From: a virus
Length of the DNA stretch: 64,000 nucleotides
Virus record (IMG/VR): IMGVR_UViG_3300020248_000002
Reading direction: 5' to 3' (one strand)
Positions 5,156 to 29,900 of the stretch are shown here, piece by piece (positions within the stretch are counted from its first letter, which is position 1; every line of letters starts with the position of its first letter). The translations under genes and the position numbers were made by a program. A model generated the notes under the pieces. The model saw nothing but the letters and a program-made list of their open reading frames with translations. It was not told where the DNA came from and made no database searches.

Positions 5156-5325
5156 TGACTCCAACTTACCACATCTATCTAAACGAGAAGTGTTTATTCA
5201 AAAACTTAAACCAAGAAGAGTTTGATCTCATCTGGGGTAGGATATATAAGTCCTACTTTGCGGATGAACTCACATACTCTGCTGTTTTTGAAAAAGCAGA
5301 AGACTATTCAGACGCATCTTTCTAA
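5155..5325 (+). CDS. Small hypothetical protein, 56 aa (not in ORF track)
   Basis: MTPTYHIYLNEKCLFKNLNQEEFDLIWGRIYKSYFADELTYSAVFEKAEDYSDASF; TAATG coupling upstream, stop 1 nt before the PAAR ATG. Confidence 0.75.
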   Translation: MTPTYHIYLNEKCLFKNLNQEEFDLIWGRIYKSYFADELTYSAVFEKAEDYSDASF

Positions 5326-11800: not shown

Positions 11801-14800
11801 TACGTTTTCTGTAACTTCTCGTATTAGTGCTACTGTATTCTCATATCAAATATCTGCTCCTGCACCTAATTCACCTCAAGGTAACATTTTGATGTCTGTT
11901 GACCTTAATAAAGGTAAATCAGATGAAGAATCAATCAATAACTCTATCGCACAATTTACAACTAATGTACAAAATACGTTCTTCAACTCAAATTACTCTT
12001 ATATTGCTACAACAGGTATTCCAAACTATAAAGTTGGTCCGTTCATTGGGTCTGCTCTACTCCCAGGAAACCAAAGAAAGTTAAGTAGATTTCCTAGAAT
12101 TGTTGATACTGTATCACGTCGTGATGATTTATCATTTGGTCCTATTGGATGTTGGGTAAATGGTGTTGCTGTTTGGTCTTATAAGTCTCAAATTAAGACA
12201 AAATTTGGTGGAATTACAAGTTTTGATATTGTAGATGCAGGTGAAGGATATGACGCTGCTTCTAAACCATTAATTGAAATAAGTGGTGGTGGTGGATCTG
12301 GTGCTGCTGCTAGTGTTGTTGTAAATGGTTCTTTATTTAATGTTGATGTAACAGCAGGTGGTTCTGGATACACCTCATCTCCATTAGTTTCTATTGTTGG
12401 TGGAGGTGGATTTGGTGCTACTGCAACTGCTGTTATTACAAATGGAGTTGTAAGTAAAGTTCTTGTTGAAACACCTGGTCAAGGGTACACCTCAGCACCT
12501 ACTGTAAGCATCTCAGGAGGCAATGGAACAGGTGCAACTGCTACTGCCGAGGTAAGAGGTCCTATTCAATCTATTAGTGTAGATACAGCAGGATCAAGTT
12601 ATACAACTGCACCTAATATTAAATTAAATTCTGGTGAAGGTGCTGTTGCACAACCAATTATTATCAATGGTCGTATTGTATCAATCGCTATTATTAACTC
12701 AGGTAGTGGATATACATCTCCTCCTAATGTAATTATTAATGGTGATGGTTATGGTGCTATTGCAAAAGCAACCATAGGAACATTTGGTGAAGATAAAGGA
12801 CGTGTTTTAAGTATTACTGTTGAGAACAGAGGTATAGGATATTCAACTGGTCTTACAACTATTCGTTGTGAATCTATTGGTCAAGGTGCATCATTTACTG
12901 CAAATGTATTTGAGTGGACACAGAACTTAGAAACTGAACTATCAGGACTAATGGATCCTTCTCGTGGTTATGTATTTGCAGGATATAACACACAATATGG
13001 TGGTGAATATGCACATTTATCAGATCCTAAACAATTACGTTATGTTCTTGGTGATAATGTATTTAAAGATCCATCATCAGGAAATCTTAGAGAACTTTCA
13101 GCAGGACTAAGACACTCTCCTATTATTGGTTGGGCATTTGATGGAAACCCAATATACGGACCATATGGTTATATTGATGCTGCTGATCAGTCATCTGGTA
13201 TTAAGAGATGTGTATCTTCTTACAGAGTAAAACCTGCGTTATTATTTGACAGTGCAACCAATCCAAATCCAGTTCGTGCTGATGGACCACTATTATCAGA
13301 CAAACCCGCAGGAACTTATATAGAAGATTATGAGTATGTGTTCCAAGCAGGTGATTTAGATCAGTATAATGGTAGATATTGTAAGACACCTGAATATCCT
13401 GAAGGAACTTATGCTTATTTTGTTTCCATTGACGCATCAGAAGCAGGTTTACCTGTATTCCCATATGTCTGTGGACCACAATTATATTCAAGACCTGACG
13501 AATGGAACTATAGTCAAGATGCTGTACAAACCAATATTCCTCTTGATGTTGTTAGATTCCGTGATCCTTATGAAGATGTTGACATTGATATTCAACGTAC
13601 ACCTAACCAAGATACAGATACTCTTGTAACTGAGATAGGTGACGAGTTTATCTTTGAAATAGAAGATACTAACAGAGATGGTGTTATATCAACAGAAGAA
13701 GAAAACGAATTAAATTATATCTCAGAAGAACCTGTACTGCAATTATTTGATTACTACCCTAGTGTATCTACTAGATCACAGGTTGATATTGAGATTGATA
13801 CTACTACTAAATTTGAAGATGCTAAAATTAGTGGATTTGTAGTTGAAAACCCAGGTATATCATATAAAGTTAATGATAAGTTGTTCTTTGACGATACAGG
13901 AACTGGTGGATATGGTGCATCTGCTAAAGTAAATGCTGTAAAAGGTATTGATGTCAGTCAGTACACTTCATCTATGGTTAATGATTCACCGTTAGCAAAG
14001 ATTACAACTACTGGTGAACACGATTTAAGAGTTAATGATGAAATTATTGTTGATAGTATTCCTATTATTGATCAAACAAACAAAACATTTAGAGTAAAAG
14101 TTGTATCTGGTGTTGAAACAGTAAATATTAGTCAACAAGGTCTTGGATATAATGATGATATTCCACCAACTTACGAAATTGTTACAGGAACTGGTCAAGA
14201 TTTTAAATTAGAACTTGTACAACTTGAATCTGGTGCTGTTAATACAGTTAATATTATTAACTCTGGATCAGAATATACACCTAGCAATCCACCAGAAGTT
14301 AGAGTAAGTCATCCACAAAGATATAAAAAAGCAAATTATGCTCTTACATTATTAGATGAGAGTAGTGGTATTGAGAAAATAGTAAAACTTAAAGATATTG
14401 TTACTGCTGATGATAGAACATTCTATGTTGTCGGTGAAGCAGATGATGTTGATGGAGATTCAGCAGGATTACTTGCAAAATTCAATAGTGATGGTAGATT
14501 GTTGTGGACACGTACAATGGCACCACTACAACCTGCTGCGGGAGATAAACGTTGTGTATTTAACAGAATTTATCTTGAAAACACATCACCACATTCTATC
14601 TACGTTGTTGGTGAAACAATTCCTAATAATGTCAACTTATCATACAATCCAGACCTAGTTGTTGCCAAATATACCTCTGGATTTGATGCACAGAACAATC
14701 CTACTGCTGTTCCTGTATGGCAACGTGAAATTGCAGGTATATCTGGTTCTTCAAGAAGAGATTATATATCATCCTTAACTATAGATGATAACGGTCAAAT

Positions 14801-17800
14801 ATACGTTGGTGGTACAACAGATACTAACTCTCCAAATCCAGATGATATGTGGATTGCTTTGTTAGATGAACAGGGTGCTATTAAAGAAAAACGTAAGATA
14901 TGTACTGCATCAGGATCAGAACAATTAACAGACCTTAAATTTACAAGTGATAACACCTGTATATTTGTTGGTGTTAATGATCCTGCGGGAACGAGTGAAA
15001 TTATTATTGGTGAAACTAACTATGATAATGTAACTATTAACGTTTCTTGGAGTAGACAGTTTGGTAATACTGGATATAGATTCTCTAATCCTAAAATTAC
15101 TATTGATGACTATGGTTCTAGATACGTAACTGCAACTGCATACCAAATTTCTAATACCAAGAATACTGGTGTTTTGTATATGAAGTTTGCACCTAGTGAT
15201 TACAAAACTCCATCAGTTGTTAAATTACTTTCACCTACTGGTGTATTTGAAGATATACAATCAACTGGAGTTAAATTTGATATATTTGGTAATATTGATG
15301 TTGGTGCATACGTTAAATATGCTTTCAATGATCATAGAGCAATCATATTCAAGATTTCTTGGAATACAAGTAATATATTAACTGCTGCTTCTGTAAAACA
15401 GGTTAGTGGTATTGGTTTCCAACCAACTACAATTAGTAACGATAATTCTGGTGATACTATTATTGCAGGTAATAAAATTGAATCTAATGAATTAGCAATA
15501 CTCAATTTTGAATCAACTATAACTGGAGATGAAACATATAATAATACTTTAACAGCAGGATGGTCTGTAGATCCTACATTAGATACTTCTAAATGGAAAT
15601 ATGGTGCACAGTCAGCAAATATCAGTGCTGCTGCGAATAGACTATCGTTAGACTGGGGTGCTGATGTAGCAACAAATTATACTATTGAAGCGTGGATCGC
15701 TATTGGGCAAGCACAATACAATGCTCAAAGTTCTACACCAAATATTTTTGATGTTGCTCCTACTACAGGTGATAATGCAGTTGTAGAACTAGAAGGTGAT
15801 GCTACAAGTCCTGATTTTGGTAAAGTTCGTTTAAAGTTAGGTTCTAATACTTACCTATCTACAACCACAACTAACTGGACAACATTTAATAACGAAGCAT
15901 TTATACACGTTGCTCTTGTTAAGTCAACTCCTGGTGTTGGTACTTACGTTTATAAAGTATTCATCAATGGTGTTGAACAAATTGATGTAACAAGTACAAC
16001 TATAGATACACAACTTAAATCTATACTATTATTTGGTAAATCATCTCCTGTTGTCGCTAGTTCTATTGGTGGTTGGGTAGATAATATTTCTGTATCAGGT
16101 ATTGCAAAATATAGTGATACATTTACTCCTGCACAAGCAGTTGGTTCTAATAAAACAGTATCTGCTTTCTGCTACAAGTTAGATAGAGAACAAACTAAGA
16201 CTGGAACATATACATTAAACACCGTTCAAACTGGTATGCAGATTCAAGTCGCAGCCGCTGTGAACGACTTTACGTTTAATACCCAGGTGATTACTTCTGG
16301 AGATTGGACATTAGGTCCTGCGGGTCTACAAATACTTGATTATGCTGATGTTGTATCAAATAATGTTGAAGGAACTTACTCATTTACGTCTACAGATCAG
16401 ATATATGAGACTAGAACTGCTACTATCCCAACACCTCTTGGTAGAAAACTACTACTAAGCACTACTGTTATTCCTAAATTCTATATTCGTGATGCAATAT
16501 ATCAGTCTATTGATACTGTAAAGACAGTAACATTTAACCAAACAGCAAACTTTACTAAAGGTTCTATATTACAACAGTATTCAGTTATTGGTGGACAAGA
16601 TGTAGTCAGTGCATACGGTACTATTGTAAATGTTCGTGGAGCACAAGGACAGGTTGATATTGGTAATATTATTGGTAATTTTGATACTACTAAGAAATTA
16701 AAATCAACTGCAAATGATGTAAACCTTATTAATCAAACATTTTTAGTTGAAACAACTATACCTCAATGGTTTACAAACTTCAGTTATACAACTGGAGATG
16801 AAGTTTATAATGCAGGTAAGATCTATACAGCAGGTTCTACTGGAGTTTCTGGTGCTAGTGCTCCTATTCATACGATTGGTACAGTAACTGATGGAAATAT
16901 AAACTGGGTATATACTCGTGATGCAGGTAGTTTTAATATAGATCTTGCAAATACTTCATATTCTAGTGGAACATTAAATCAATTTGGTTCTTGGAGACCA
17001 TTTGTAGCAACAGATTACTCAATTAGAATTGAAGCAGTATATGAGGGATCAGCATTTATTAAAGGTGATAACATTGATGCTGACGCTGTTGGTCTTTCAG
17101 CAACATTCGATGCTACTGGAAAGATAATAACAATATCAGGTTTAGTTGGAGTTAAGAAATTCCATCTTACATCGAATCTTGATAAAGATATTATTCCAAC
17201 TGGTGCTCTAGCATTTACAGATTTAGTATTCTGTGTTTCTACAAGTAGGCATAATTTTACTCAAAACGAAATTATATTTGTTGAAGGATTTACAACAACT
17301 GAATATGGTGGATCATTCTTTGTAGAAGAGGTTCTTGATAGTAGAAGATTCTTATATCGTTTAAGATCAACTGCTGTACAAGATCCTTCATTTACAAGTT
17401 CTACTATTGCAAGTGTTAATATCTACGCTAAACATCCACAATTATTATTTGTTCGTAAACATCAATACATATTTGACCTTGATGATCCATCTAATTTTGG
17501 ATATTATATGTCGTTCTCTAAGGATAATCAATATAAATTAGAATATCCTTTTGTAAACATTGTTAGAGAGGGTATCCCAGGTTTAACTGACCAAACATCA
17601 CCTAAACCACTTGTTAAGTTTATTGTTGATGAAGATGTTACCAATATTTCATATTACTTCGATCCATCAAGAACTCTTCCAAGTAACTCTCCTGTAGGTG
17701 AAGCATCATTTATTGACGTTATAGAAACTCCTTATAAAGGAACATTTAATATTAATCAGATATTATCAGATACAGAATTTACATTCCCACTTCTTGTAGA

Positions 17801-20800
17801 ACCAGAAAAAACAACTGCTCCTTTAGGAACAACTGAAACAGGTCTTACAAGAGCATCTTATAGTACAACTTCTCTAAAAGCGATTGGTCCTATTGCAAGT
17901 ATCAAACTGGTAAACCCAGGTGGTTTCTATCAGAAATTACCTATTGTTACTGATATATCATCTGATAGAGAAATTGAGAAAATACGTATCATATCTGGTG
18001 GTACAGAATACATTAATGGCATCTATTATAATGTTCCTATTGCAGGAGATGGTGAAGGTGGTCTATGTAATATTACAGTTGCAGATGATGGTGAATTAAC
18101 AGGTGTTATTACTGCTGTTGAATTAACATCTCCAGGTAAAGGATATACTACTGCATCTATTGATATTGATACTATTCCAGGAATATTGGGATCACTATTA
18201 CAAGGTTCTGGTGGACAACTTGATGTTGTAATTCCTGCTGAGGGATCTGGTGCATCTGTGTTCTTACAAGGTACAAGTATTGGTAAGATTAAGAAACTTA
18301 AAAATAATGAATTTGGTTTCGGTTATTCTCACGATTATACACTAAGACCTGAGATTACATTCCCTGTAAACCTTCAGTTGTTTAATACTGCTATACTTTC
18401 TGAAATTAAGGTTACAGATCCTGGTTCTGGTTATACATCAATTCCTAGAGTTGTTATTGAAGGTGGTGGTGGATCAGGTGCTGAAGCAGAAGCGATTGTT
18501 AAAAATAATAGACTATCTGAAATAATAATTAAAAATCCTGGATCTGGATATAGTTCTGAACCATCAGTTACACTTAAGTCAGAATTTAACTATGTTGTAA
18601 ACCTTGATTTAGGATATTTACAGTTTAACTTCCCACACGGTATTACAACTGGTGCTGCTGTTCAACTTAGAGCAGAAGATTTAGGATCTACAGTTGGTGT
18701 TCTACCAAAACCAAGTTCAGCAGGTTTGGTTAGTTTAAGTTCTACAACCACTTACTATGCTATTGCAGGTGAGGCAAATTCACTTGAAGCAGACCAACTT
18801 AGAATAGCACTAACACAAGTTGATGCTGAGTCTGGTAACTTTATTACATTCTTAACTCAAGGTGATGGTCGTCAGATTCTTCTTACTGAAGTATTTGGTG
18901 GTCAAGCAACTGCTATTGTACAAACATCTCGTTTCTTAAAAGGAGAACTTGTATATCAAGGTTCATCCCTAGAAACTGCTACTGCAACAGGTTACGTTTC
19001 AGATAATGAAGGTTGGCAGATTGGTCCTCGTATATTAAAACTTGAAAACTATAACGGAAATTGGACTGTTGGAGAACGTGTAACTGCACAGGTATCTCGT
19101 GCATCTGGTTTGATTGATAACTTATCTATTGCTCGTGGTACATTGAATATAGACTCAATGACAACCACTACTGGTCAGTTTATTGATGACATTGGTAAAC
19201 CATCTGAAATTGTACAGAAAATTCAAGACTCTTACTTCTATCAGAACTTCTCTTACGTTATTAAATCACAAACTCCTATTAACGAATGGAGAAAGAGTAT
19301 TCTTGAAACCAATCACCCAGTTGGATTCAATATGTTTGGTGAATTGGCACTTGCAGCAGGTAAAGATATATCAGGAAGAAAGGTTGTATCTGATCTTGTT
19401 AAAGAAGTTAATATCTTTAGTGCTACTAATATTAATCAGATTACATCTTTTGCTAACTCACAACCAATATATACCGAGTTTAATAACACTGAAGTATTAT
19501 TCAGACAAAGAAGACTTACTAACTCTGAAGAAATCTTAACTTCTATTGTTAAAAAACTTGATAATATTGATAATGACTTTAATGGTGTTAAAACACAATT
19601 CCCATTGACTGTAGAAGGTGAATCTGTAACTGCAACTGATGATCAATTATTGATTCTTATTAACGGTGTTGCCCAGTCACCTGGAACTGCATTCACAACA
19701 TCTGGTCCATCTGTTGTATTCTCAGAACCACCTAAAGCACCATCAAGAATTAAGTTTAGAAATCTTACATTCTCTCAAATTAATATTATAAGATATACAT
19801 TTAGTACAACATCTGGTATTTTCCCACAAACAGGTAAACCTGTAAGGTCTTTACAGAACGAGGGAACTGCAACTGTCATTGATAGTGGTGTAGATTACAT
19901 TGATGTTATCGATGTAGAAGGTACTTTCCAGATTGGTGACAATGTTTTAGCGTCATCTAGTGGATTTGATGGTACATTAAGTGCTGTAACTGGTTTAACT
20001 AGCAAAACAATTTACGAACAAGGTGAAAGAATAACAAATTTACAAGGTGATTTTGCAATTATTGAAGAAAATAACCTTAGAGATGGTGTTGTAGACGCTA
20101 GATTGGTAGTTTCTCGTACATCTGGTACATCTGAATTTGAAACTGGTGACTTTAATATCAAATTTAACGACACAATATACTCTGCTGCATCTAAAATTGC
20201 TGCAAGAGTTACTGTAATTGCACCATATACAGACGATGTATCTCAACAAATCATTGATACTGTTGATTTATCACCTCCATCATCATTCTTTGGTCTAATT
20301 TTCCAACGTGTTCCTTCAATTACCTATCCAAATACTATCTTAGACAATATTTCTGAGACAGTTATCAATCCAGAAGAACTATATGAAGAGGGAACTGCTA
20401 ATAACCAAGACTTCTTAGACTTTGAAGAGGTAAGAAACCAAGAAATTAGATATAATTATCTGTCAGGATCACAATTTGTAGCAGGTGACTCAATACGTAA
20501 CAAACAAATCTACTATGATAACGCTTCATTAGTAGGTGTAGACGATCAACGTTCATTTGATGCTGCTGTATTGATAAGAAAGAATGCTAGATTCATTGCT
20601 GAAGAAGCAGTTGGATTAATGAAGGCATTTTTCCCATCATTTGTAGTTCCATCATTAGGTGGAGATAGAGATTGTGAAGATGATATTGTAGATATTTTAA
20701 ATATTGTTGCATATCAATTAGAAGTTGATGGTAACTCAGAAATCTGGGATGCTGCTAGTACATATGTACAGGGTAATGCAATATATCACGTTGATGGTGA

Positions 20801-23800
20801 AGTAGCACAAACAATATACGCATTTAACAAAGCACGTGATTTAGCGATACAGTGTATCCGCAATGAAGTTATTAATACAACTACCACTAATCTACCTCAA
20901 TATAGAGATCCTACTATCACAGAAGAGTTTGCTGTTATAAGCAATAGTCACGGTGATGCAAGAGATTTAATTCTTGCTAATAAATGGTTCATTGCATATG
21001 AAGCATTACATTATGCTAAAACACAAAATCCAGGATATAACGTATCAGGTGGAGATGTTCATTGTTTATCTGATATTGTTGATGTTCTTGAAGCGATGGT
21101 TTATAACTTAGCACACGGTGGTAATAACTTTGTATATAAAGCAACTAAGAAAACTCTACAGTATGGTGTAACATCTGGTGATAGAGATACTATTGTAGAT
21201 GCTTTTACTAAGGCAAGAGATATTGCTATTGAAGTAATGAGAAATAATGCTTGGACAAAAGCAGGATCTCATAACTGGAATCAAGTAACTGATACATCTA
21301 TAACCGCTGATCCTGCAAACCCAACTTGTCAGGCAGTTGCATCAGCAATTACTACACTAATGAATATTTTGATTACTAATCTTGGATCAACTGCATCTCC
21401 AGGAACAGTAGCAGCATTTGAAGCAGCAGTAACTGAGACTGCACCTTCTGGAGCGTATGCAGGATATACTAACAGTTGTGTTAATCAGGCAAATGCTATA
21501 ACATCCTATATGAGAATCATTACTGATACTCTAGAGGATCCTACAGGTGGCACTCCTGCAACATATCAGTGGGCAATTACTAATGTACCTCGTGTTCTTC
21601 CTCCTTATGCTTTTGTGGATGGAGAAACTTTACGTTGTGCTAAACACGCTTATAGAGATAAATCATCTGGTGGATTCTTTGTATTTGGTGATACTGTAAG
21701 AGCAGTTACATCAGGTGCAACATATGATGTTATTGGATCTAATGCAGGTAACAAGTGGATCTTCTCTAAACAGATTAGTGGTGTATTACAAGCAGGTGAG
21801 TACATAACCAACTCTAAACTTACATATGCAAACGTATCTCAAGATAAATTAACATTTAAAACTGATTCTGGTTCACTTAGATTTACTGGATCTGGTTCAT
21901 ATGCTACTTTCCCATCAAGTAATGCTGTATTATTTGGTGATGGAGCAGATGCTGCTACTGGTGACTATACAATGGAATTATGGATACGTCCTGCTTCTGT
22001 TACTGGCACACAGAGACTTATTGATCTTAGAGAGTCATCTTCTGACACTAAGTTAGGTATATTGATGTCTGGTCAGTCACTTCGCTTATCTATAGGTGCT
22101 AGTGATGTAATTACTGTTAGTTCTGCTATTACTACAATCAATAACTGGTATCATATTGCAGTATCTCGTTCTACAAGTGTTACTAAACTGTTTGTAAATG
22201 GTCAGCAGATGGGTACATACACTGATACAAACAATTATAATGCAAATAGTAAGATTACTGTTGGTGCAGGATGGAACAATGGTAATCCTTTCAATGGTTG
22301 GATTGATAATCTTATAATCCGCAAAGGAATTTCCCAGTACAATAGTAGTTTTACTCCCCCTATTATCTTTAACGATAGTACAGATGTATCATTCGCACTT
22401 CTTGGTGAAGCACCATTCCCTATGGAACAGAGTGCAGTATATGCAACATACGTTAATCATATAATATCTACTGCTACTGCTGATGAAGTTGAGCTATGGC
22501 GTTCTGAACTTACAACTGAAGGTGTTGATCTTAGTCGTGAAGAATATAGAATATGTGCTGAAGTTATACGTAAGAATATTGACTATATTGCTGAAGAAGC
22601 AGTTGGTCGTCTTAAGTATAGATACCCTGATTTTGTCATCCCTGGTGATGGTGGTATGAGTGGTTATGGATCTAATGTTTGTCTACGTGATACTAAATCA
22701 TATATTATTCCTGCTATAATTGACGATCTTATATCAGGTGGTAACTTCCAAACAACCATTGTTGGTCGTGCTTACATTGAAGGATCTGGTGCATTACAAC
22801 ATATTGGTGGTGAGCAATTACAATCAATCTATACTTGGAGAGAAGTTGCAAAACTTTGTATTGATGTAATTACATTAGATGAAGCAGATTTAGAAGGAAC
22901 TTATTCAACTAAAGTTCGTGTTCCTAATTATTTTGCATCTCCTGCATCTTCACAGATACAAACTGATATTATGACTCTTGTAGATGATCTATTAGATGTT
23001 ATAGGTCCTACAGGTCATAGATTTAGAGATGGTGCTGATTTAATTTACTTTAATAGAAAAGCAATCGCTGATGAAGCAGTATATTATATTGAAAACAAAT
23101 ATCAAGTACAAGTTGGTTTCTCAACAGTAAATAAACTAACAATACCTAATAGAGCAAAATGTGTAAGAGATATTAGAGATCATATACTTCCTGCTATTGC
23201 AGGTGACTTGGTTACAGGTGGTAACTTTGAAACTCAAGCAATGATTGATAGTTATCTCGATAATGAGACTAATATCAATTATATTGAAGATGAATTGCTT
23301 GCAATGATTGATGCGATTGAATATGCTAAGAAGTTAGCACAAAAAGCAATACAAGGTTTATTAATTGGTAGAAATGAGAACCCTGCTCAAGTCGCTGCTG
23401 ATTTCTCTGATTACTATCAGATGTTATACACAGATGAGTCTGTTTATCGTGACGATACTATTACAATAGATCCTAAAGCATATACTGGATCTGATAGAGA
23501 TCTTGACGCTGCAAATCTTTTACAGCAAAATGCTAAGACCATTGCAGGTGAAGCAGTTGATATTCTAACTAAAACATCGTTTGCACAATCTAAGAAGTTT
23601 AGAGTTCCAGGTGGTAAAGTTAACTGTGAAGATGATATTGTTGACATCATCGAATCTGTAGCACACGATTTACGTTTTGGTGGTAACAGCGAGACATATG
23701 ATGCTGCTGCTTTATACTTAAATACTGATTTAGCATTAAGTCACGTAACTAATCAATCTGATGAGACAATCTATGCGTTTAAGTTAGCAAGAGATATGTC

Positions 23801-26800
23801 AATCCTAACCATCAGAAACCGTTTAGGGTTTACTCCCTATGAGAGTGAGGCAGCAACAGGTGGATTAGGACAAGCAATACAGAGACCTGATTACTATAAT
23901 AATGCTACAACCAATGGTTACTATGATGCTGCAAATGAAATTGAAAATAATATAAGATTTATCGCTACAACTGCTGTTGGTCGTGGTATGTCTCAGTATC
24001 CTAATTTGGCATTCTCTGGTGGTTATAATTATCAGTCTTGTGTTGATGACGTTGTAGATTTACTTGAAGCATTAGTATTCAACTTAAAGCACGGTGGTAA
24101 CAACCGTATGTGGTATTCAAGTGAGTTCTATATTACAGTTGGAAATGCTATACAGCATATTAGTAACCAAGCAGCAGAAGTTAAATATATCTTTGAACAA
24201 GCAAGAGATATTGCAATACAAATAATGAGACAGCAGATTGTTACAATTAATGGTGTAACAGAAGGAAGTGCAATATATGATTCTAGTATTACTATTGATG
24301 GTACTAATACAACAGTTGGTAACTTAACTCCAACAAATGTAGAATACTTCCCAACTACAGGTAATTTAAGACTTACTGTTAATGGTCATAACTTAACTAC
24401 AAGTGATAGTATTCAACTTGCTCAAAACTCATTAACATTTACTTGTGATTTTGATGGTAATGCAACAAACCATACATATCCAAGACCATTAGATCCTTCT
24501 AGCGGTGCTTTATTACCAGTTACAGCATTTACTACAAATACATTTACAGTAAATGTAGGAACTACTGCTAACGGAACTCACGATGTTACTGATGCAATAT
24601 ATGAAGAAGCAACTGGTAATCTATTCTTAGATATTGGTACAAATAATCTTAATGTTGGAAGACATATTAAGTTCTCTCAAGATTATGCAATAACATTTAC
24701 TTGCACAAAAGATGGTAATACTACTAACCACGCATATCCTCGTCCTACTGACTATGCTAGTGGTAAATCATTAGAAGTTTTAGAAATTAGTGATTCTGCG
24801 TTTACAGCAACAGGAGCAACATATTCACCTACTACTGGTGCTATGACCCTGACTGTTCCTCAACACGGATTTAGTAATGGTGATCAGATAAGACTTGTTA
24901 ATAATTCATTGAACTTCACTTGTACAATGGATAACAACTATAGTGTACATTCTTATCCTCGTGCTAGTGATCCTGCATCAAACCAGTATCTAACAATCAG
25001 CAACGTTGCTACAAATACTTTTGATGTAAACGTTGGTTCTACAAATACTCTAAATTATACTCCATCAAATGTTGTTTACAGTCCTACTACAGGAGATATG
25101 GTTATCACAATCGGTAATCACAGTCTTGTTCCTGGATCACACATTAAGATTGCTGATAATTCATTAATATTTACTTGTTTAGAAGATAATAATGCTACTG
25201 AGCATTCATATCCTAGAACAACAACTACAATACATCAGAGCACTGCTGCTGTATATGAACCTACTACAGGTATGATGCAGTTGACTGTTCCTCAACACGG
25301 ATTTGCAAATGGTGATCAAATTAAGATTGCAACTGATTCTCTAACATTTACTTGTGGTCAAGATAACAATCAAACAAATCATACATATCCACGTGCTACT
25401 GACCCTGCTGCTAATTCTTGGTTAGAAATTTCAGATGTAACTGCAAATACATTTAAAGTTCAAGTTTTATTATCTACTGGAATACCTTCAACAAATACAA
25501 CACCACACACATATGTTTCTTCTGCTACAAATAATATTACTTGGAAGAAAGATAGAGCATATGATGTTCCTTTAGAAGTAAAAGCAGTTGGTCAAACAAC
25601 TATTACAGTTAATGTTTTAGCATCTGGAAGAATCCCATCTACTAACGTAACTACTCATACATTTGTAAATGCTGCAACAAATGCAATAAGTGCAGGTGGA
25701 AATTACACTCATACATTCATATCTGCTGCACCTGGAGGTGTTAGATTTAAGAATGGACGTATTAAGGTTAATGTAAACCCTGCACCTACAAACGAACAAT
25801 ATCCACATACATTTGTAAGTGCTGTTTCTGGTGCTGTATCTTATGGTGGTAATCATCCTCACAACTTTGTAAGTGCTAATACTAATGCTATAACCTTTAT
25901 TATTGGTGGTGGTGGAGTTCGTTGTGTAAATGAAGCAGCGTCTATAACAACATTAATGGGTATTCCTATCAATCTATTTGATAGTAGTAATACAAGTAAT
26001 CCTACAGCATATCTAAATGGAATTACGAGAACATTACCACTCGAATGGCCACTTACAGGTGAACGTGCTATTAGACGTGACGTTTCTATAACTTACGATT
26101 CAGCAGGTAACGGAAACTGCACCACACAGAGTTCAGCGATTAATACCCTTTGGGAGATACTTATTAATACTATTGATACTGCTGCTCAAGGAAATGGTAG
26201 TCATCTTGCAACTATAACCAGAACTGCACCTGTCACTAACAACACTGTATATAAAGGTGGAACTTGTTACGATGTCACATCTGCTGCACACGTACTATTC
26301 AAGACACTTCTTCACGGTCTTGGAAGTGGCACAGAGATGTATAAACAATCTGCAAGATTATTAATATACAATGACACATATACTCGATTAGAATCATATG
26401 AGAAAACTTTAAATCAATATCCTGGTTATGCAGGAGATGCTTCGTTTGCTGAACCAATACAAAAAGCGATTGTATATGACTTCATTACAAATGGTAATGC
26501 TAGGACTTTACAATTAGTTAACTCTTGGTTTGATGCTGATGGTAATTTCGTAGCATACCCAACACTCTTTAGAACTCGTCTTCTTTATCACGCAAGAATG
26601 ATTAAAGAGTTGATGGATCATATCTTAAAAGGAACTGCACCTGATCCTGGTGTAAATGCTAACCAACCTCTTTATTCACTTGATGGAACTAATCCTGATA
26701 GAGAATTACGTCCTACTGCGACTGCATCTCATAAGTTACATCAATTATTCCACTTAATATTAACTGCGTTACAATACTCACAATTCCCAACAACATACTT

Positions 26801-29800
26801 AAGAACACAATTTGACGCAGGTGTTGCTGTTTATGATGGAGTTATTAATGTTGCTAATAACTTTGAACCATATGATAGAGTTGCTTATATTGTTCTAGGA
26901 TCTAATATTCCAGAACTTGATGGAACAACCTATTATGTACATCCTAATTCAACATCTAATAAGATAGTTCTTACAGAATATATTGATGGAGAACCAATAT
27001 ATCTAAGTCCAGGTCTAGCATCACAGTTACATACACTCGCTGTTGAAGTAGATCCAGGTGTAGATCGTGTACCTACAACTTATGGAACACGTGATGTACC
27101 AACACCAATCAAAGCAGGTTTCAACCTTGCTGATGTTATCTACGGTGGAACATCTGGTGCTACTGCTCAGATAGTTCGTATGGAAGATAATTTAGCAGAT
27201 ATTATGTATCAGGCAAAATATATGACCTGTAATACATTCTCTGCACAAGGTGGTGGAACTGGAATCAAGATTCAGAATGGTGAGACAGTTGTTGTTCAAG
27301 GTGCTACTCAAAATACTGGTAAGGTTCTTGCTACTGATAACGAGACATATATTAAGTTGATTGATTACAATGGAACATTTACAGCAGGTGATACTATAGA
27401 AGGTGTTACATCTGGTGGTACTTGTACATTTGCTGATGAGCACGATAGACTTCTTGTTAATTTCCGTCAGGGTGAATTTATTGCAACTGATAAGTTCTTC
27501 TCTACAGATACTGGATCTAAAGCAACTGCTCTAATTGTTAGAAACAATAACGGTGCACTAATTGATAATCAGAGTGGTAGAATCACTTACGACATCACCA
27601 CAGTAACTGGAGAGTTTAAACCCCAAGATGTTATCTATGGATCTGTTACTGATCAAATTATTGAAATTGAATCTTTTGTTACTCTACCTAATTTTGGTGA
27701 GTATGTACACGGTAGACAAATTACAAGACTTACATATGTTCAGTTAATTACTGATACAGGTGTTACTGATACATTTAATGTTGGTGATGTATTACAGGTT
27801 CAATCTGGTGGTATTAGTATTGGTTGGACAGTGACTGTTACTGAGATTGATACAAATAATAATTACGTATTTGTTGCAAATGAAACTGGAACTCCAGAAG
27901 GTGTAACTATTTCTGATATTGCAAGTAATTCACAATATCAACTTGCTAAAGTACCAGTTGGAACTCTATTCCCATCCGTATATACAGGAGTTGCAGCAGT
28001 TACAATAACAGATACAACAGCATACGGTAAGATTGCTAAGATTACACAGTTTGGTACTCGTGCTGTTCTCCACTTAGAAGGAACAAGTGGAACATTCCAG
28101 AAGAACTCACAAATTATTGGAGACAATGGTTTCAAAGGTGCTTGTTCATCTGCTAGATCTTTAAGAGGTAGAGTACGTAGATTCTTTAGAGGATTTGATG
28201 GTGTACAAAAGGCATTTAAACTAACTCAAGGAAATGGTACACAATACTTCCCAGATCCCGCAGGACATATGATGATCTTTGTGAATGGTATCTTACAACC
28301 ACCTGGTGCTGACTACGCATTCACAGCATTCTCAGATAACATACAGTTTACTGAAGCACCTGCTATAGGATCAACTTTCCACGGTGTATATAAAGGTAAG
28401 TTAAGACAATTAGATGATATATCATTCGACTTTGATTCATTACGTAACTCATTCAACTTAAAGTTAAATGGAGTGTTCTACTCATTGACTTTAACTGATG
28501 GTGTACAATCAAATACAATCTTACCTGAGAACAATATTATTTGTCAGTTAAATGGTGTTATACAGGAACCTGGAATTGGTTTTGAAATTGTTGGTTCTAG
28601 AATTATCTTCTCTGAAGTTCCTCGTGCAGGTTCAACCTTCGTTGCATTCTCTTATGTTGGTTCTGATGTTGACGTTATTGCAGCAACAGTTGTACCACCT
28701 ATTGAAGCAGGTGATGAACTTATCATTGATGGTGAGGAAGAAACAAGAACAGTTGCTCTTATTGAATCATCTAACTCTCTAATTACATTTGAGTATGGTG
28801 GAGCAGTTAAAGGACGTAATGCTTCTGCACTTGCTGAAATTGAAAAAGGACGTATTACCAATGCGATATTAACAAACTCTGGTGATGGTTATAGTACAAG
28901 ACCACAAGTTGATGTTATATCTTCAACAGGATTTGGTGGACGTATTAAGGCACTTGTTGGTGTAGCAAGAATTGATGTTAAGAACGCAGGTCAAGGATAT
29001 TCATTACCTACTATTGTTGCAAATACAACTGTTGCAGATGATTTCTTAGGACCTACAGGACCTGCATTAAATGGTGGTATTGATATTTACGATCCTAACT
29101 TCATACCTGTAACAGGTGGTACTGGAGTCATAGAGAACTTTATAACAATAACTGAATCACCTAGAAATATTACTGTTAACCAAGGTCAGACTGCTACATT
29201 CCAAGTTGCAGCAAAAGTAACAATATCTAATGTTGTTGCTTATCAAATTAATGTTGCTGATAAGTCTGTTAACCATCCTTACTATGGTCAAGGATCTGGA
29301 AAAGGTTATAACTTTACTGGTGGTCAATTTAATTCAAGCACTGAAGCACCAACACTTGTATTTGTTCGTGGAGCAACATATCAGTTTAATCAAAACGATG
29401 TTACCAATGCTACTCACGCACTTTACTTTAGTGAAGATGCTACTGCTTATGGTGGCAATAGTAGATATGAGACTGGTGTTGTATATCGTCTTAACGGTAA
29501 TCAAGTTGCAGACTACGCAACATATGCTGCGGGATTTAATGCTGCTACAACACGTAGTGTTAGCATTACAGTCGCTGCTGATGCTCCTGCTACTCTTAAT
29601 TACGTATGTGGTAATCATCAGTATATGGGTTCAGCAATTAACGTTAACAACGGAACTCTTTCATATCAGTGGCAGAAAAAAGATTATGGAACATCAAGTT
29701 GGAACAATATCACTGGAGCAATTAGTTCTACATATACAACTGCTGCTACTACACAGGCAGATACAAATGATGAATATCGTGTTGGTATCACATCTAACGG

Positions 29801-29900
29801 TGCAATCCCTGTTCTATCAACTGCTGCTGTTCTTACCGTCAACATCGGTGCAACAACACTCAGTTCCTTCACACCTACCCAAATCTTTGACGACGACTAA
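8814..29900 (+). CDS. gp7: Giant baseplate wedge initiator gp7-like protein (7028 aa) with YHYH, beta-propeller, LamG, helical-repeat, nested beta-repeat, cupredoxin-like and Ig-like modules
   Basis: Position after gp6; QIPAFI.E...F...YY.SQE N-terminus; IKDFY.SKGT...LFKILF; IQDSYFYQNFSYVIKS...W......HPVGF gp7 core motifs. Confidence 0.85.
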   Translation: MKSVKVSQRLQDQIPAFIKEEDQSFVDLLVQYYKSQEKSGKPYDILNNILSYTDISSDEYDPNFISSSSIVLDRIGATDQNITVETVDNFLEKDGTIKIDNEIIFYEETTKSPEVVFTPGVNKLEFDKKIQELENIRPLFDGTETSFQLKLLGTPITPSSVEYLRVIINGLQLEPNVDYFLDGSNIRFQTPPANLAGSTTVTKIEYLIGYTSVPVRVLDVINITDDLVGAKILPLRLNTVVYTPLSTVSCLIAVNGVVQEPFTDYTVYNDHLILKKAVSLNDKITVRSVELIAPQFGKGASAIARVSDNKVTDLIVKNGGQDYRINFTPKVTILTPEGVTGKEATAEALVNGIKNVQLIDGGQGYTSANPPVVVFDTPADPSGSIAKATVTVDDATGQVTGINVQSSGSGYDTIPSISFTNAAGATISDAQIDSEGKVVDGSIQVLTKGLHYTTAPEVYIDAPVDPIGIRASAIAVLDDQSRVDRIEMISPGRGYVTPPRCRIIDPIGAQILDVKVSGGKLTDIQLLTGGSGYNDAPSVYIVDNRKNLSGEAIGGTGATAVATIFNGEITDINITSFGDGYSDTEPPQVFIASPKAAAASCDVGFQEITGFTVHSHGSEYQPSQFKNCKRGVSGVSSYDIRGNQVFTNEAQSIQSSHEVGTSIENLDSLFAKTLYERFVNQFLPDADIDYTTINAPQIVKTIKDFYVSKGTKTATEYLFKILFSENVDVSYPKDELIKPSAATWSVDTIIRVELISGNPVDILDSQLFQYADAVDTTVGNAVCLVENVIAINTGDRTIYELSISEETLEGKFSIPYKTTLVEPLTTTESIITVDSTIGWPERNGIIIMGDSERIQYKEKSLNQFIECTRSKNGIVEDWDSGTPIYSDIFCYINRGLDTEVKLRVLGIAEATGTVLTDTGSYYLPSDKLNVASLGSSSTDQRVTSWLYNVKKLISVNNIEPGGLNNQTATVYTTNNHGLLVGDSVTIYGANPTIFNGTFSVTSRISATVFSYQISAPAPNSPQGNILMSVDLNKGKSDEESINNSIAQFTTNVQNTFFNSNYSYIATTGIPNYKVGPFIGSALLPGNQRKLSRFPRIVDTVSRRDDLSFGPIGCWVNGVAVWSYKSQIKTKFGGITSFDIVDAGEGYDAASKPLIEISGGGGSGAAASVVVNGSLFNVDVTAGGSGYTSSPLVSIVGGGGFGATATAVITNGVVSKVLVETPGQGYTSAPTVSISGGNGTGATATAEVRGPIQSISVDTAGSSYTTAPNIKLNSGEGAVAQPIIINGRIVSIAIINSGSGYTSPPNVIINGDGYGAIAKATIGTFGEDKGRVLSITVENRGIGYSTGLTTIRCESIGQGASFTANVFEWTQNLETELSGLMDPSRGYVFAGYNTQYGGEYAHLSDPKQLRYVLGDNVFKDPSSGNLRELSAGLRHSPIIGWAFDGNPIYGPYGYIDAADQSSGIKRCVSSYRVKPALLFDSATNPNPVRADGPLLSDKPAGTYIEDYEYVFQAGDLDQYNGRYCKTPEYPEGTYAYFVSIDASEAGLPVFPYVCGPQLYSRPDEWNYSQDAVQTNIPLDVVRFRDPYEDVDIDIQRTPNQDTDTLVTEIGDEFIFEIEDTNRDGVISTEEENELNYISEEPVLQLFDYYPSVSTRSQVDIEIDTTTKFEDAKISGFVVENPGISYKVNDKLFFDDTGTGGYGASAKVNAVKGIDVSQYTSSMVNDSPLAKITTTGEHDLRVNDEIIVDSIPIIDQTNKTFRVKVVSGVETVNISQQGLGYNDDIPPTYEIVTGTGQDFKLELVQLESGAVNTVNIINSGSEYTPSNPPEVRVSHPQRYKKANYALTLLDESSGIEKIVKLKDIVTADDRTFYVVGEADDVDGDSAGLLAKFNSDGRLLWTRTMAPLQPAAGDKRCVFNRIYLENTSPHSIYVVGETIPNNVNLSYNPDLVVAKYTSGFDAQNNPTAVPVWQREIAGISGSSRRDYISSLTIDDNGQIYVGGTTDTNSPNPDDMWIALLDEQGAIKEKRKICTASGSEQLTDLKFTSDNTCIFVGVNDPAGTSEIIIGETNYDNVTINVSWSRQFGNTGYRFSNPKITIDDYGSRYVTATAYQISNTKNTGVLYMKFAPSDYKTPSVVKLLSPTGVFEDIQSTGVKFDIFGNIDVGAYVKYAFNDHRAIIFKISWNTSNILTAASVKQVSGIGFQPTTISNDNSGDTIIAGNKIESNELAILNFESTITGDETYNNTLTAGWSVDPTLDTSKWKYGAQSANISAAANRLSLDWGADVATNYTIEAWIAIGQAQYNAQSSTPNIFDVAPTTGDNAVVELEGDATSPDFGKVRLKLGSNTYLSTTTTNWTTFNNEAFIHVALVKSTPGVGTYVYKVFINGVEQIDVTSTTIDTQLKSILLFGKSSPVVASSIGGWVDNISVSGIAKYSDTFTPAQAVGSNKTVSAFCYKLDREQTKTGTYTLNTVQTGMQIQVAAAVNDFTFNTQVITSGDWTLGPAGLQILDYADVVSNNVEGTYSFTSTDQIYETRTATIPTPLGRKLLLSTTVIPKFYIRDAIYQSIDTVKTVTFNQTANFTKGSILQQYSVIGGQDVVSAYGTIVNVRGAQGQVDIGNIIGNFDTTKKLKSTANDVNLINQTFLVETTIPQWFTNFSYTTGDEVYNAGKIYTAGSTGVSGASAPIHTIGTVTDGNINWVYTRDAGSFNIDLANTSYSSGTLNQFGSWRPFVATDYSIRIEAVYEGSAFIKGDNIDADAVGLSATFDATGKIITISGLVGVKKFHLTSNLDKDIIPTGALAFTDLVFCVSTSRHNFTQNEIIFVEGFTTTEYGGSFFVEEVLDSRRFLYRLRSTAVQDPSFTSSTIASVNIYAKHPQLLFVRKHQYIFDLDDPSNFGYYMSFSKDNQYKLEYPFVNIVREGIPGLTDQTSPKPLVKFIVDEDVTNISYYFDPSRTLPSNSPVGEASFIDVIETPYKGTFNINQILSDTEFTFPLLVEPEKTTAPLGTTETGLTRASYSTTSLKAIGPIASIKLVNPGGFYQKLPIVTDISSDREIEKIRIISGGTEYINGIYYNVPIAGDGEGGLCNITVADDGELTGVITAVELTSPGKGYTTASIDIDTIPGILGSLLQGSGGQLDVVIPAEGSGASVFLQGTSIGKIKKLKNNEFGFGYSHDYTLRPEITFPVNLQLFNTAILSEIKVTDPGSGYTSIPRVVIEGGGGSGAEAEAIVKNNRLSEIIIKNPGSGYSSEPSVTLKSEFNYVVNLDLGYLQFNFPHGITTGAAVQLRAEDLGSTVGVLPKPSSAGLVSLSSTTTYYAIAGEANSLEADQLRIALTQVDAESGNFITFLTQGDGRQILLTEVFGGQATAIVQTSRFLKGELVYQGSSLETATATGYVSDNEGWQIGPRILKLENYNGNWTVGERVTAQVSRASGLIDNLSIARGTLNIDSMTTTTGQFIDDIGKPSEIVQKIQDSYFYQNFSYVIKSQTPINEWRKSILETNHPVGFNMFGELALAAGKDISGRKVVSDLVKEVNIFSATNINQITSFANSQPIYTEFNNTEVLFRQRRLTNSEEILTSIVKKLDNIDNDFNGVKTQFPLTVEGESVTATDDQLLILINGVAQSPGTAFTTSGPSVVFSEPPKAPSRIKFRNLTFSQINIIRYTFSTTSGIFPQTGKPVRSLQNEGTATVIDSGVDYIDVIDVEGTFQIGDNVLASSSGFDGTLSAVTGLTSKTIYEQGERITNLQGDFAIIEENNLRDGVVDARLVVSRTSGTSEFETGDFNIKFNDTIYSAASKIAARVTVIAPYTDDVSQQIIDTVDLSPPSSFFGLIFQRVPSITYPNTILDNISETVINPEELYEEGTANNQDFLDFEEVRNQEIRYNYLSGSQFVAGDSIRNKQIYYDNASLVGVDDQRSFDAAVLIRKNARFIAEEAVGLMKAFFPSFVVPSLGGDRDCEDDIVDILNIVAYQLEVDGNSEIWDAASTYVQGNAIYHVDGEVAQTIYAFNKARDLAIQCIRNEVINTTTTNLPQYRDPTITEEFAVISNSHGDARDLILANKWFIAYEALHYAKTQNPGYNVSGGDVHCLSDIVDVLEAMVYNLAHGGNNFVYKATKKTLQYGVTSGDRDTIVDAFTKARDIAIEVMRNNAWTKAGSHNWNQVTDTSITADPANPTCQAVASAITTLMNILITNLGSTASPGTVAAFEAAVTETAPSGAYAGYTNSCVNQANAITSYMRIITDTLEDPTGGTPATYQWAITNVPRVLPPYAFVDGETLRCAKHAYRDKSSGGFFVFGDTVRAVTSGATYDVIGSNAGNKWIFSKQISGVLQAGEYITNSKLTYANVSQDKLTFKTDSGSLRFTGSGSYATFPSSNAVLFGDGADAATGDYTMELWIRPASVTGTQRLIDLRESSSDTKLGILMSGQSLRLSIGASDVITVSSAITTINNWYHIAVSRSTSVTKLFVNGQQMGTYTDTNNYNANSKITVGAGWNNGNPFNGWIDNLIIRKGISQYNSSFTPPIIFNDSTDVSFALLGEAPFPMEQSAVYATYVNHIISTATADEVELWRSELTTEGVDLSREEYRICAEVIRKNIDYIAEEAVGRLKYRYPDFVIPGDGGMSGYGSNVCLRDTKSYIIPAIIDDLISGGNFQTTIVGRAYIEGSGALQHIGGEQLQSIYTWREVAKLCIDVITLDEADLEGTYSTKVRVPNYFASPASSQIQTDIMTLVDDLLDVIGPTGHRFRDGADLIYFNRKAIADEAVYYIENKYQVQVGFSTVNKLTIPNRAKCVRDIRDHILPAIAGDLVTGGNFETQAMIDSYLDNETNINYIEDELLAMIDAIEYAKKLAQKAIQGLLIGRNENPAQVAADFSDYYQMLYTDESVYRDDTITIDPKAYTGSDRDLDAANLLQQNAKTIAGEAVDILTKTSFAQSKKFRVPGGKVNCEDDIVDIIESVAHDLRFGGNSETYDAAALYLNTDLALSHVTNQSDETIYAFKLARDMSILTIRNRLGFTPYESEAATGGLGQAIQRPDYYNNATTNGYYDAANEIENNIRFIATTAVGRGMSQYPNLAFSGGYNYQSCVDDVVDLLEALVFNLKHGGNNRMWYSSEFYITVGNAIQHISNQAAEVKYIFEQARDIAIQIMRQQIVTINGVTEGSAIYDSSITIDGTNTTVGNLTPTNVEYFPTTGNLRLTVNGHNLTTSDSIQLAQNSLTFTCDFDGNATNHTYPRPLDPSSGALLPVTAFTTNTFTVNVGTTANGTHDVTDAIYEEATGNLFLDIGTNNLNVGRHIKFSQDYAITFTCTKDGNTTNHAYPRPTDYASGKSLEVLEISDSAFTATGATYSPTTGAMTLTVPQHGFSNGDQIRLVNNSLNFTCTMDNNYSVHSYPRASDPASNQYLTISNVATNTFDVNVGSTNTLNYTPSNVVYSPTTGDMVITIGNHSLVPGSHIKIADNSLIFTCLEDNNATEHSYPRTTTTIHQSTAAVYEPTTGMMQLTVPQHGFANGDQIKIATDSLTFTCGQDNNQTNHTYPRATDPAANSWLEISDVTANTFKVQVLLSTGIPSTNTTPHTYVSSATNNITWKKDRAYDVPLEVKAVGQTTITVNVLASGRIPSTNVTTHTFVNAATNAISAGGNYTHTFISAAPGGVRFKNGRIKVNVNPAPTNEQYPHTFVSAVSGAVSYGGNHPHNFVSANTNAITFIIGGGGVRCVNEAASITTLMGIPINLFDSSNTSNPTAYLNGITRTLPLEWPLTGERAIRRDVSITYDSAGNGNCTTQSSAINTLWEILINTIDTAAQGNGSHLATITRTAPVTNNTVYKGGTCYDVTSAAHVLFKTLLHGLGSGTEMYKQSARLLIYNDTYTRLESYEKTLNQYPGYAGDASFAEPIQKAIVYDFITNGNARTLQLVNSWFDADGNFVAYPTLFRTRLLYHARMIKELMDHILKGTAPDPGVNANQPLYSLDGTNPDRELRPTATASHKLHQLFHLILTALQYSQFPTTYLRTQFDAGVAVYDGVINVANNFEPYDRVAYIVLGSNIPELDGTTYYVHPNSTSNKIVLTEYIDGEPIYLSPGLASQLHTLAVEVDPGVDRVPTTYGTRDVPTPIKAGFNLADVIYGGTSGATAQIVRMEDNLADIMYQAKYMTCNTFSAQGGGTGIKIQNGETVVVQGATQNTGKVLATDNETYIKLIDYNGTFTAGDTIEGVTSGGTCTFADEHDRLLVNFRQGEFIATDKFFSTDTGSKATALIVRNNNGALIDNQSGRITYDITTVTGEFKPQDVIYGSVTDQIIEIESFVTLPNFGEYVHGRQITRLTYVQLITDTGVTDTFNVGDVLQVQSGGISIGWTVTVTEIDTNNNYVFVANETGTPEGVTISDIASNSQYQLAKVPVGTLFPSVYTGVAAVTITDTTAYGKIAKITQFGTRAVLHLEGTSGTFQKNSQIIGDNGFKGACSSARSLRGRVRRFFRGFDGVQKAFKLTQGNGTQYFPDPAGHMMIFVNGILQPPGADYAFTAFSDNIQFTEAPAIGSTFHGVYKGKLRQLDDISFDFDSLRNSFNLKLNGVFYSLTLTDGVQSNTILPENNIICQLNGVIQEPGIGFEIVGSRIIFSEVPRAGSTFVAFSYVGSDVDVIAATVVPPIEAGDELIIDGEEETRTVALIESSNSLITFEYGGAVKGRNASALAEIEKGRITNAILTNSGDGYSTRPQVDVISSTGFGGRIKALVGVARIDVKNAGQGYSLPTIVANTTVADDFLGPTGPALNGGIDIYDPNFIPVTGGTGVIENFITITESPRNITVNQGQTATFQVAAKVTISNVVAYQINVADKSVNHPYYGQGSGKGYNFTGGQFNSSTEAPTLVFVRGATYQFNQNDVTNATHALYFSEDATAYGGNSRYETGVVYRLNGNQVADYATYAAGFNAATTRSVSITVAADAPATLNYVCGNHQYMGSAINVNNGTLSYQWQKKDYGTSSWNNITGAISSTYTTAATTQADTNDEYRVGITSNGAIPVLSTAAVLTVNIGATTLSSFTPTQIFDDD
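24327..25898 (+). repeat. Five copies of a ~100-aa beta module (Y-x-P-TTG...FTC-x2-D-x5-H-x-YPR...HTFV) within gp7
   Basis: FTCDFDGNATNHTYPR, FTCTKDGNTTNHAYPR, FTCTMDNNYSVHSYPR, FTCLEDNNATEHSYPR, FTCGQDNNQTNHTYPR. Confidence 0.9.

What the first reader, a model, noticed from the sequence alone, without database searches (positions are those of the whole stretch)
24327..25898. Five-level Matryoshka (self-nested) repeat inside giant gp7
Seen: five homologous modules open in order 1-2-3-4-5 and their C-terminal parts close in reverse order 5-4-3-2-1. Only unit 5 is contiguous (AAVYEPTTG...HTYPRATDP...LEISDVTANTFKVQV...PHTYVSSATNNI). Unit 4 breaks after HSYPR and resumes with the missing DRAYDVPLEVKAVGQTTITVNV...THTFVNAATNAI. 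Unit 3 breaks after TFDVNVG and resumes with THTFISAAPGGV. Unit 2 breaks after LEVLEISD and resumes with GRIKVNVN...PHTFVSAVSGAV. Unit 1 breaks after TFTVNVG and resumes with PHNFVSANTNAI. Each resumption supplies exactly the part missing at its break point. Inference: the chain goes out and returns, building a monomeric stalk of domains each inserted in a loop of the previous one. This would extend a baseplate appendage without trimerisation, growing by recursive insertion rather than tandem duplication.
Basis: partly seen in the sequence, partly recalled or inferred. Interest (0 to 1): 0.85.

Follow-up and report, generated by a model that had tools for sequence, protein, structure and literature searches.

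The report
Self-nested beta-barrels in cyanophage baseplate protein
A 7,028-residue baseplate protein of a marine cyanophage carries five copies of one small beta-barrel domain, each inserted into a loop of the one before and finished in reverse order as the chain comes back, a build known from cyanobacterial RNA polymerase that I found no paper describing for a phage particle.

Summary
Observation confirmed. In ORF 8814-29900 (gp7 position), a profile built only from intact copies found elsewhere parses aa 5170-5694 as four unfinished units, one whole unit and four closers, each resuming where its partner broke, in reverse order. AlphaFold2 gives a confident single-chain model (pLDDT 90, pTM 0.70). 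Solved FCCH/RIFT-type barrels superpose on discontinuous ranges joining units 4, 3 and 1 to their own closers. Across 47 non-redundant proteins, breaks fall at four fixed loops and close last-in-first-out (72% against 34% shuffled). Residue coupling favours the nested partner in 91 of 101 triples. Relatives range from one unit to branched trees at least seven deep; circular permutants exist. The cassette itself sits inside three nested helical repeats. Stalk shape, monomer state and function are inferred, not shown. Self-nesting is known from RNA polymerase SI3 (PMC13114784), so this is a new variant. This scan already reported the module on other genomes.

The parts
8814..29900 (+). Host gene: 7,028-aa giant virion protein at the gp7 position (after gp25 and gp6)
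   Evidence: (PHROG 701, E 0)
24321..24563 (+). Unit 1 N-part (aa 5170-5250), model positions 1-80, breaks at site d (loop before the last strands)
24576..24794 (+). Unit 2 N-part (aa 5255-5327), breaks at site c (hairpin at model position about 70)
24798..25040 (+). Unit 3 N-part (aa 5329-5409), breaks at site d
25053..25217 (+). Unit 4 N-part (aa 5414-5468), breaks at site b (after YPR, model position 55)
25230..25541 (+). Unit 5, intact innermost barrel (aa 5473-5576)
   Evidence: model residues 301-411 match single barrels
25548..25691 (+). Closer of unit 4 (aa 5579-5626), model positions 56-102
   Evidence: range 244-459
25695..25745 (+). Closer of unit 3 (aa 5628-5644), last strands
   Evidence: range 158-480
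25749..25841 (+). Closer of unit 2 (aa 5646-5676), model positions about 71-102
   Evidence: continuous strands 151-161 and 474-484
25845..25895 (+). Closer of unit 1 (aa 5678-5694), last strands
   Evidence: range 1-526, one row
23028..24299 (+). Three unfinished helical repeats (aa 4739-4855, 4898-5004, 5038-5162); the beta cassette is inserted in the third
25923..26336 (+). Three helical closers (aa 5704-5717, 5756-5791, 5808-5841) after the cassette
   Evidence: E 0.034, 1.9e-10, 0.0019

Best explanation
A 102-residue beta-barrel module (FCCH/RIFT-like core plus an extra hairpin) has paired N- and C-termini and four loops that tolerate a chain break. A whole module therefore fits into a loop of another module. 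Here this has happened four times over: 1[2[3[4[5]]]]. The chain lays down the first parts of barrels 1-4, folds barrel 5, then returns and completes 4, 3, 2, 1, so neighbouring barrels are tied by two chain segments. SHOWN by sequence, covariation and a confident model: the nested fold. INFERRED: the cassette is a fairly rigid side arm budding from a helical repeat of the gp7-position protein, projecting from the baseplate and adding reach and host-contact surface while the main chain continues (about 0.6). INFERRED: trees grow and shrink by recombination, because any balanced cassette begins and ends with the same conserved strands as a single unit, so a double crossover swaps a leaf for a subtree and keeps the brackets balanced (about 0.55).
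For: Blind parse of the window. Break and resumption positions cluster at about 25/26, 55/56, 70 and 80/90 across 111 ORFs. In 47 non-redundant proteins: last-in-first-out matches 262 of 362 (72%), first-in-first-out 38%, 2,000 shuffles 34.4 +/- 2.3% (max 42.5%); around a single intact insert the classes match in 113 of 125 cases. Coupling learned from 223 unrelated intact units favours nested over swapped partners in 91 of 101 triples (15 pairs) and in all four classes. Termini covary (pairs 4-100, 3-100, 1-102). AlphaFold2, 48 natural rows: mean pLDDT 90.3, pTM 0.70, no segment under 50, every closer a strand. Single solved barrels align to model ranges 301-411, 244-459, 158-480 and 1-526. 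Thirteen isolated last-strand-first (circularly permuted) units exist. Cultured phages carry 1 unit (S-RIM8), a 3-deep nest (ACG-2014d) or branched sets of a dozen or more (Syn30, P-SSM3) in the gp7-position giant, in four of five cases ending at the same point of the helical repeat. Host units group by break site (nearest neighbour in the same class 85 of 101, 61 of 101 below 60% identity, 28 expected).
Against: No experimental structure. The alignment given to AlphaFold2 was chosen for matching architecture, and units 1 and 2 had only 9 rows at 69-99% identity; with 2 rows the model failed (pLDDT 41.6). No structural row cleanly spans unit 2 and its closer. The window's own coupling score prefers swapping closers 1 and 3 (-13.3 vs -23.2). 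28% of resumptions mismatch in the automated test; those I traced were missed short pieces or permuted units, but I did not trace all. Triples come from related phages and are not independent. Best fold matches are middling (Z 7.5-7.8). Nothing tests shape, rigidity or role.
Confidence: 0.82

Rival explanations
1. Same nested fold, but the barrels are the working parts: repeated low-affinity binding modules for host surface glycans or pili, nested to pack many sites on one chain (avidity), not mainly a spacer.
For: Best structural match is the barrel of phage phi92 endosialidase (Z 7.8, rmsd 2.5, 84 aligned); from my own knowledge the equivalent barrel of K1F endosialidase binds sialic acid. 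Unit number varies from 1 to about 30. The tip is a plain barrel with no other ligand-binding domain. Split domains project ligand-binding domains in RTX adhesins (PMC12077191).
Against: The invariant residues (C42, G14, P54, H91, D58, Y53) look structural; no binding site was identified; Z under 8 shows no function.
Confidence: 0.35
2. The pieces are real but pair differently: crossed or domain-swapped inside the chain (for example closers 1 and 3 exchanged) or between neighbouring copies of the protein in the baseplate.
For: Closers 1 and 3 tie in alignment score; the window's own coupling prefers the swap; all five last strands share one motif.
Against: Paired termini and 1-5 residue linkers place each closer at its own host loop; model ranges 158-480 and 1-526; 5 of 6 other orthologues favour nesting; 91 of 101 triples favour nesting.
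Confidence: 0.07
3. Each nesting level arose by a fresh insertion or local self-duplication, not by exchange of pre-formed blocks.
For: At least four sites are used in many combinations; some first insertion must have created each junction.
Against: Inner units are not closer to their own host (41.5% vs 40.2%, maximum 57%); DNA repeats in the window are only 60-75% alike over their longer copies; junction linkers are stereotyped per site; the same 4-deep cassette recurs in different proteins and six times in one.
Confidence: 0.25
4. The closers form a separate small domain of tandem short repeats and the N-parts are stable as truncated domains.
For: The closers lie in a row and share a motif (family D3).
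Against: Closer lengths match the missing parts exactly; break and resumption counts balance (a 102/102, b 60/57, d 203/190); solved barrels need N-part plus closer.
Confidence: 0.02

Closest known systems
SI3 insertion of cyanobacterial RNA polymerase beta' (RpoC2): recursively inserted sandwich-barrel hybrid motifs (PMC10895346, PMC13114784)
   Same: Homologous small beta domains inserted inside each other; the chain folds back so several domains are discontinuous; elongated single-chain body (150 A long in the crystal structure); six levels, the most complex case that survey presents.
   Different: Different module (FCCH/RIFT-like barrel), an extracellular phage structural protein, four or more usable loops, architecture varying from one unit to branched trees at least seven deep, circular permutants, and spread over several genes. 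SI3 holds 8-10 domains in the representatives surveyed.
Contractile tail sheath proteins, 'Russian doll' domains I-IV (PMC6088184, citing Aksyuk 2009, 2011)
   Same: Phage tail proteins whose domains are insertions of one another.
   Different: Up to four domains, which to my knowledge are not homologous copies; here the nested domains are copies of one module.
Split domains of RTX adhesins (PMC12077191)
   Same: A domain is interrupted, projects an inserted domain with adjacent termini away from the main axis, and is completed on return.
   Different: One to two levels, host and insert of different folds, insert is a ligand-binding domain.
FCCH domain of ubiquitin-activating enzyme E1 and the endosialidase beta-barrel (RIFT-type barrels)
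   Same: Fold of the core: Z 7.6 (4p22, 76 aligned, rmsd 2.6) and Z 7.8 (4hiz, 84 aligned, rmsd 2.5); nearest named Atlas cluster is E1_FCCH at 0.92. From my own knowledge both are themselves inserted domains.
   Different: 12-18% identity, no Pfam hit, an extra Cys-containing hairpin, and self-nesting.

Membership tests
Recursive self-insertion architecture (SI3 type) | Repeated domains are homologous | tested here: met
   32-53% identity among spliced units; one HMM covers all five
Recursive self-insertion architecture (SI3 type) | Host domains are discontinuous and are completed after the insert, in reverse order | tested here: met
   predicted, not experimental
SI3 / SBHM (HABAS) family itself | Module is a sandwich-barrel hybrid motif | tested here: inconclusive
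   No hybrid-motif chain among the 50 best structural matches, which are mostly RIFT-type barrels; an unlisted family is not excluded
SI3 / SBHM (HABAS) family itself | Located in the trigger loop of RNA polymerase beta' | tested here: not met
   Host is a PHROG 701 virion protein in a baseplate gene cluster
FCCH / RIFT-type beta-barrels | Small closed beta-barrel superposing on solved members | tested here: met
   Z 7.5-7.8, rmsd 2.5-3.0, 76-84 residues; most of the 43 chains at Z>=5 are this fold. Z under 8 is middling
FCCH / RIFT-type beta-barrels | Sequence match to PF16190 or PF12195 | tested here: inconclusive
   No Pfam hit for unit 5; Atlas feature score 0.92 to an E1_FCCH cluster
T4-type gp7 baseplate wedge initiator | Gene follows gp25 and gp6 and precedes gp9-like and gp8 genes | tested here: met
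   same order in P-RSM4 and P-SSM3
T4-type gp7 baseplate wedge initiator | Sequence similarity to proteins annotated gp7 | tested here: met
   aa 651-840 match P-HM1 'gp7' (36.5%, E 3e-32) and several 'baseplate wedge initiator' genes; orthologues noted 'similar to gp7'. These are annotations
T4-type gp7 baseplate wedge initiator | Direct similarity to the solved T4 gp7 | tested here: inconclusive
   No PDB sequence hit for aa 1-900; PF23786 at 26.9 bits against a cut-off of 27
T4-type gp7 baseplate wedge initiator | One copy per wedge, bound to a gp6 dimer | not testable with these tools
   Known for T4 from my own knowledge; needs cryo-EM here

The most novel reading that the evidence does not exclude
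Cyanomyovirus virion proteins are built by a bracket grammar: two module types (a beta-barrel and a helical repeat) nest in themselves and in each other, recombination swaps leaves for subtrees, and the resulting branched single-chain arms are a tunable host-contact apparatus. In this window that gives eight nested levels (three helical, five barrel), more than the six of the most complex case in the 2026 survey.
Probability: 0.45. Interest if true: 0.8.

Novelty: new variant of a known kind. Interest (0 to 1): 0.62.

Why it matters
Deep domain insertion is rare, and the most complex case presented by a survey of 2.7 million domains is a six-level nest in RNA polymerase; that paper does not mention phages. 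Here the same principle runs through structural proteins of abundant marine viruses (325 phage records hold the module), with variable depth, branching and circular permutation. It gives the unexplained 6,000-8,500-residue cyanophage baseplate proteins a readable architecture, a natural series for studying how a chain folds when four domains must wait for their last strands, and a barrel with four validated insertion loops for building branched single-chain scaffolds.

Tried and rejected
AlphaFold2 with 2 rows failed (pLDDT 41.6). Foldseek of the whole model against the PDB gave nothing meaningful (TM about 0.1); BFVD returned cyanophage and other phage proteins with high rmsd, as expected for differing architectures; the Atlas gave TM under 0.5. 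No PDB sequence hit for the module or for aa 1-900; no Pfam family for unit 5. A three-copy complex of units 4 and 5 returned no verdict; it is no evidence either way on trimerisation. A coupling test of all five last strands was inconclusive for the window (nested rank 21 of 120; rank 1 in 3 of the 6 other orthologues). A full grammar fit explained 72% of split fragments against 56% for shuffles, a weaker test because many loci are cut off. Recent DNA duplication or an assembly artefact rejected: repeats are 60-75% alike and independent contigs at 69-99% protein identity have the same layout. First-in-first-out closing rejected (38%). Literature searches for nested repeats in phage virion proteins found no description; the library lacks most subscription journals.

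Full report
Setting. The region lies in ORF 8814-29900 (+, 7,028 aa). It matches PHROG 701, a giant virion structural protein, along its length. It follows gp25- and gp6-type genes and precedes gp9-like and gp8-like genes. Residues 651-840 match the protein annotated gp7 in P-HM1 (36.5%, E 3e-32), and orthologues in Syn30 and P-SSM3 are noted 'similar to gp7'. There is no direct hit to the solved T4 gp7, so gp7 is a positional and annotation-based label. The module's hits among annotated phages are cyanophages and marine viruses.

Observation. Spliced units align over full length with unit 5. To avoid circularity I built a 102-position HMM from 261 non-redundant contiguous units in related loci and ran a Viterbi parser that may enter and leave the model anywhere. 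For the window it returned 2-80, 2-75, 3-80, 2-55, 2-102, 56-102, 90-102, 74-102, 91-102: four openers, one whole unit, four closers in reverse order. Unit 4 and its closer are exactly complementary (55, then 56). Closers 1 and 3 are of the same type, and sequence alone cannot order them.

More than chance. Across 111 ORFs, breaks and resumptions cluster at four loops: a (about 25/26), b (55/56), c (about 70) and d (80/90). In 47 non-redundant proteins, resumptions match the most recently opened unit in 262 of 362 cases (72%). A queue gives 38% and shuffles 34.4 +/- 2.3%, maximum 42.5%. Around a single intact insert the classes agree in 113 of 125 cases. Mismatches that I traced by eye in L003 and L051 came from missed short pieces or from a circularly permuted unit at a fifth site near position 44. 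Pair couplings learned from 223 unrelated intact units favour outer-N plus outer-C over the swapped pairing in 83-91 of 101 triples, in all four classes. The triples are related by descent, so the p-values overstate the case.

Structure. With 2 sequences AlphaFold2 failed. With 48 natural, architecture-matched rows it gave mean pLDDT 90.3 and pTM 0.70 for aa 5170-5695, with no segment under 50 and every closer modelled as strands. Two long strands run across the unit 2/unit 3 junctions (model residues 151-161 and 474-484). An exhaustive structural search found single FCCH/RIFT-type barrels (best: phi92 endosialidase barrel Z 7.8, E1 FCCH Z 7.6) aligned to model ranges 301-411 (unit 5), 244-459 (unit 4 plus closer), 158-480 (unit 3 plus closer 3) and, in one row, 1-526 (unit 1 plus closer 1). 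Ranges give only first and last residues, but the unit 4 matches align 69-75 residues, more than its 55-residue N-part holds. No row cleanly spans unit 2; its closure rests on sequence, model confidence and the class c coupling (11 of 12). Covariation in intact units pairs the termini (4-100, 3-100, 1-102) and pairs the returning strand with the hairpin at 43-50. With linkers of 1-5 residues this leaves only the nested order. Thirteen isolated last-strand-first units confirm that the ends are adjacent and that loop d can be open.

Surroundings. The cassette is itself an insert in a helical repeat. Three such repeats open at aa 4739, 4898 and 5038 without their last helix, and three helical closers follow the cassette at aa 5704, 5756 and 5808 (E 0.034, 1.9e-10, 0.0019). 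That gives eight levels in all; the helical part is less firmly shown and was not modelled.

Family. Depth varies among cultured phages: one intact unit in S-RIM8, a three-deep nest in ACG-2014d, branched sets in P-RSM4, Syn30 and P-SSM3, 21 hits in P-RSM6. L083 parses without error at seven levels and L075 at six. The module also nests in other large proteins; one 4-deep cassette occurs six times in P0001 and again in several others. A profile search of 1.84 billion representatives found 732 proteins at E<=0.001.

Mechanism. Shown: a barrel with paired ends and four permissive loops, nested five deep. Inferred: double connections make a fairly rigid side arm that buds from the helical scaffold at the baseplate rim. 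T4 gp7 is one chain per wedge (own knowledge), which fits a single-chain arm, but the oligomer state here is untested. Whether the barrels are spacers or weak adhesins is open; I favour arm and scaffold first, adhesion second. Origin (inferred): inserts are not copies of their hosts, the DNA repeats are old, linkers are stereotyped per site and hosts group by site (partly orthology). This suggests few founding insertions followed by exchange of balanced blocks through recombination at the conserved first and last strands.

Comparison. Recursive self-insertion is known from the SI3 region of cyanobacterial RNA polymerase: eight hybrid motifs, four of them discontinuous (PMC10895346), six levels, the most complex case in a 2026 survey that does not mention phages (PMC13114784). 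Tail sheaths are Russian dolls of up to four domains (PMC6088184), and RTX adhesins use split domains (PMC12077191). This works like SI3 but is not SI3. I found no paper describing it in a phage virion protein. This scan has reported the same module on several other genomes; those notes gave me the literature leads and are not independent support.

Verdict. Real, well supported as an architecture, a new variant of a known kind; function unproven. Interest 0.62.

Noticed in passing
window 23028-26336: Three helical repeats open before the beta cassette and three helical closers follow it, giving eight nested levels in all.
   Followed up: partly
window 20559-21542 (aa 3916-4243): A second, two-level helical nest: an unfinished repeat, a whole repeat, then a weakly scoring closer.
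   Followed up: partly
P0100, P0129, P0049, L055, L092, L098 and others: Circularly permuted form of the barrel (last strands first, opened at loop d), 13 isolated cases.
   Followed up: partly
L051:1448-20302, aa 1865-2385: A fifth insertion site near model position 44 appears to hold a circularly permuted subtree; with it the first half of this protein parses to about nine levels by eye.
   Followed up: partly
module positions 42 and 91: Cys42 (100%) and His91 (99%) of 223 intact units lie opposite each other by the covariation register (43-90, 44-89), so each closer returns a His to its own unit's Cys. Packing, hydrogen bond or metal site unknown.
   Followed up: partly
P0001: Six copies of one four-deep cassette in a 4,764-aa protein; the same cassette occurs in P0013, P0019, P0024, P0059 and S-H9-2.
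   Followed up: no
P0015: A 725-aa protein whose start looks like a tail sheath (my recall, untested) carries nested copies of the module.
   Followed up: no
window 22554-22706 (aa 4581-4631): Helical repeat region scores on Pfam Phycobilisome PF00502 (E 7e-5, 23.3 bits, cut-off 22.2). Possibly a globin-like helical fold; bilin binding not tested.
   Followed up: no
L106 (P-RSM6) aa 5745-5778 and about aa 6885-6949: Closers with no opener that my parser recognised; a longer-range nest through other domains or diverged openers are both possible.
   Followed up: no
L008, L009: The module occurs in small adjacent ORFs (about 330 and 900-1,090 aa), not only in giants.
   Followed up: no
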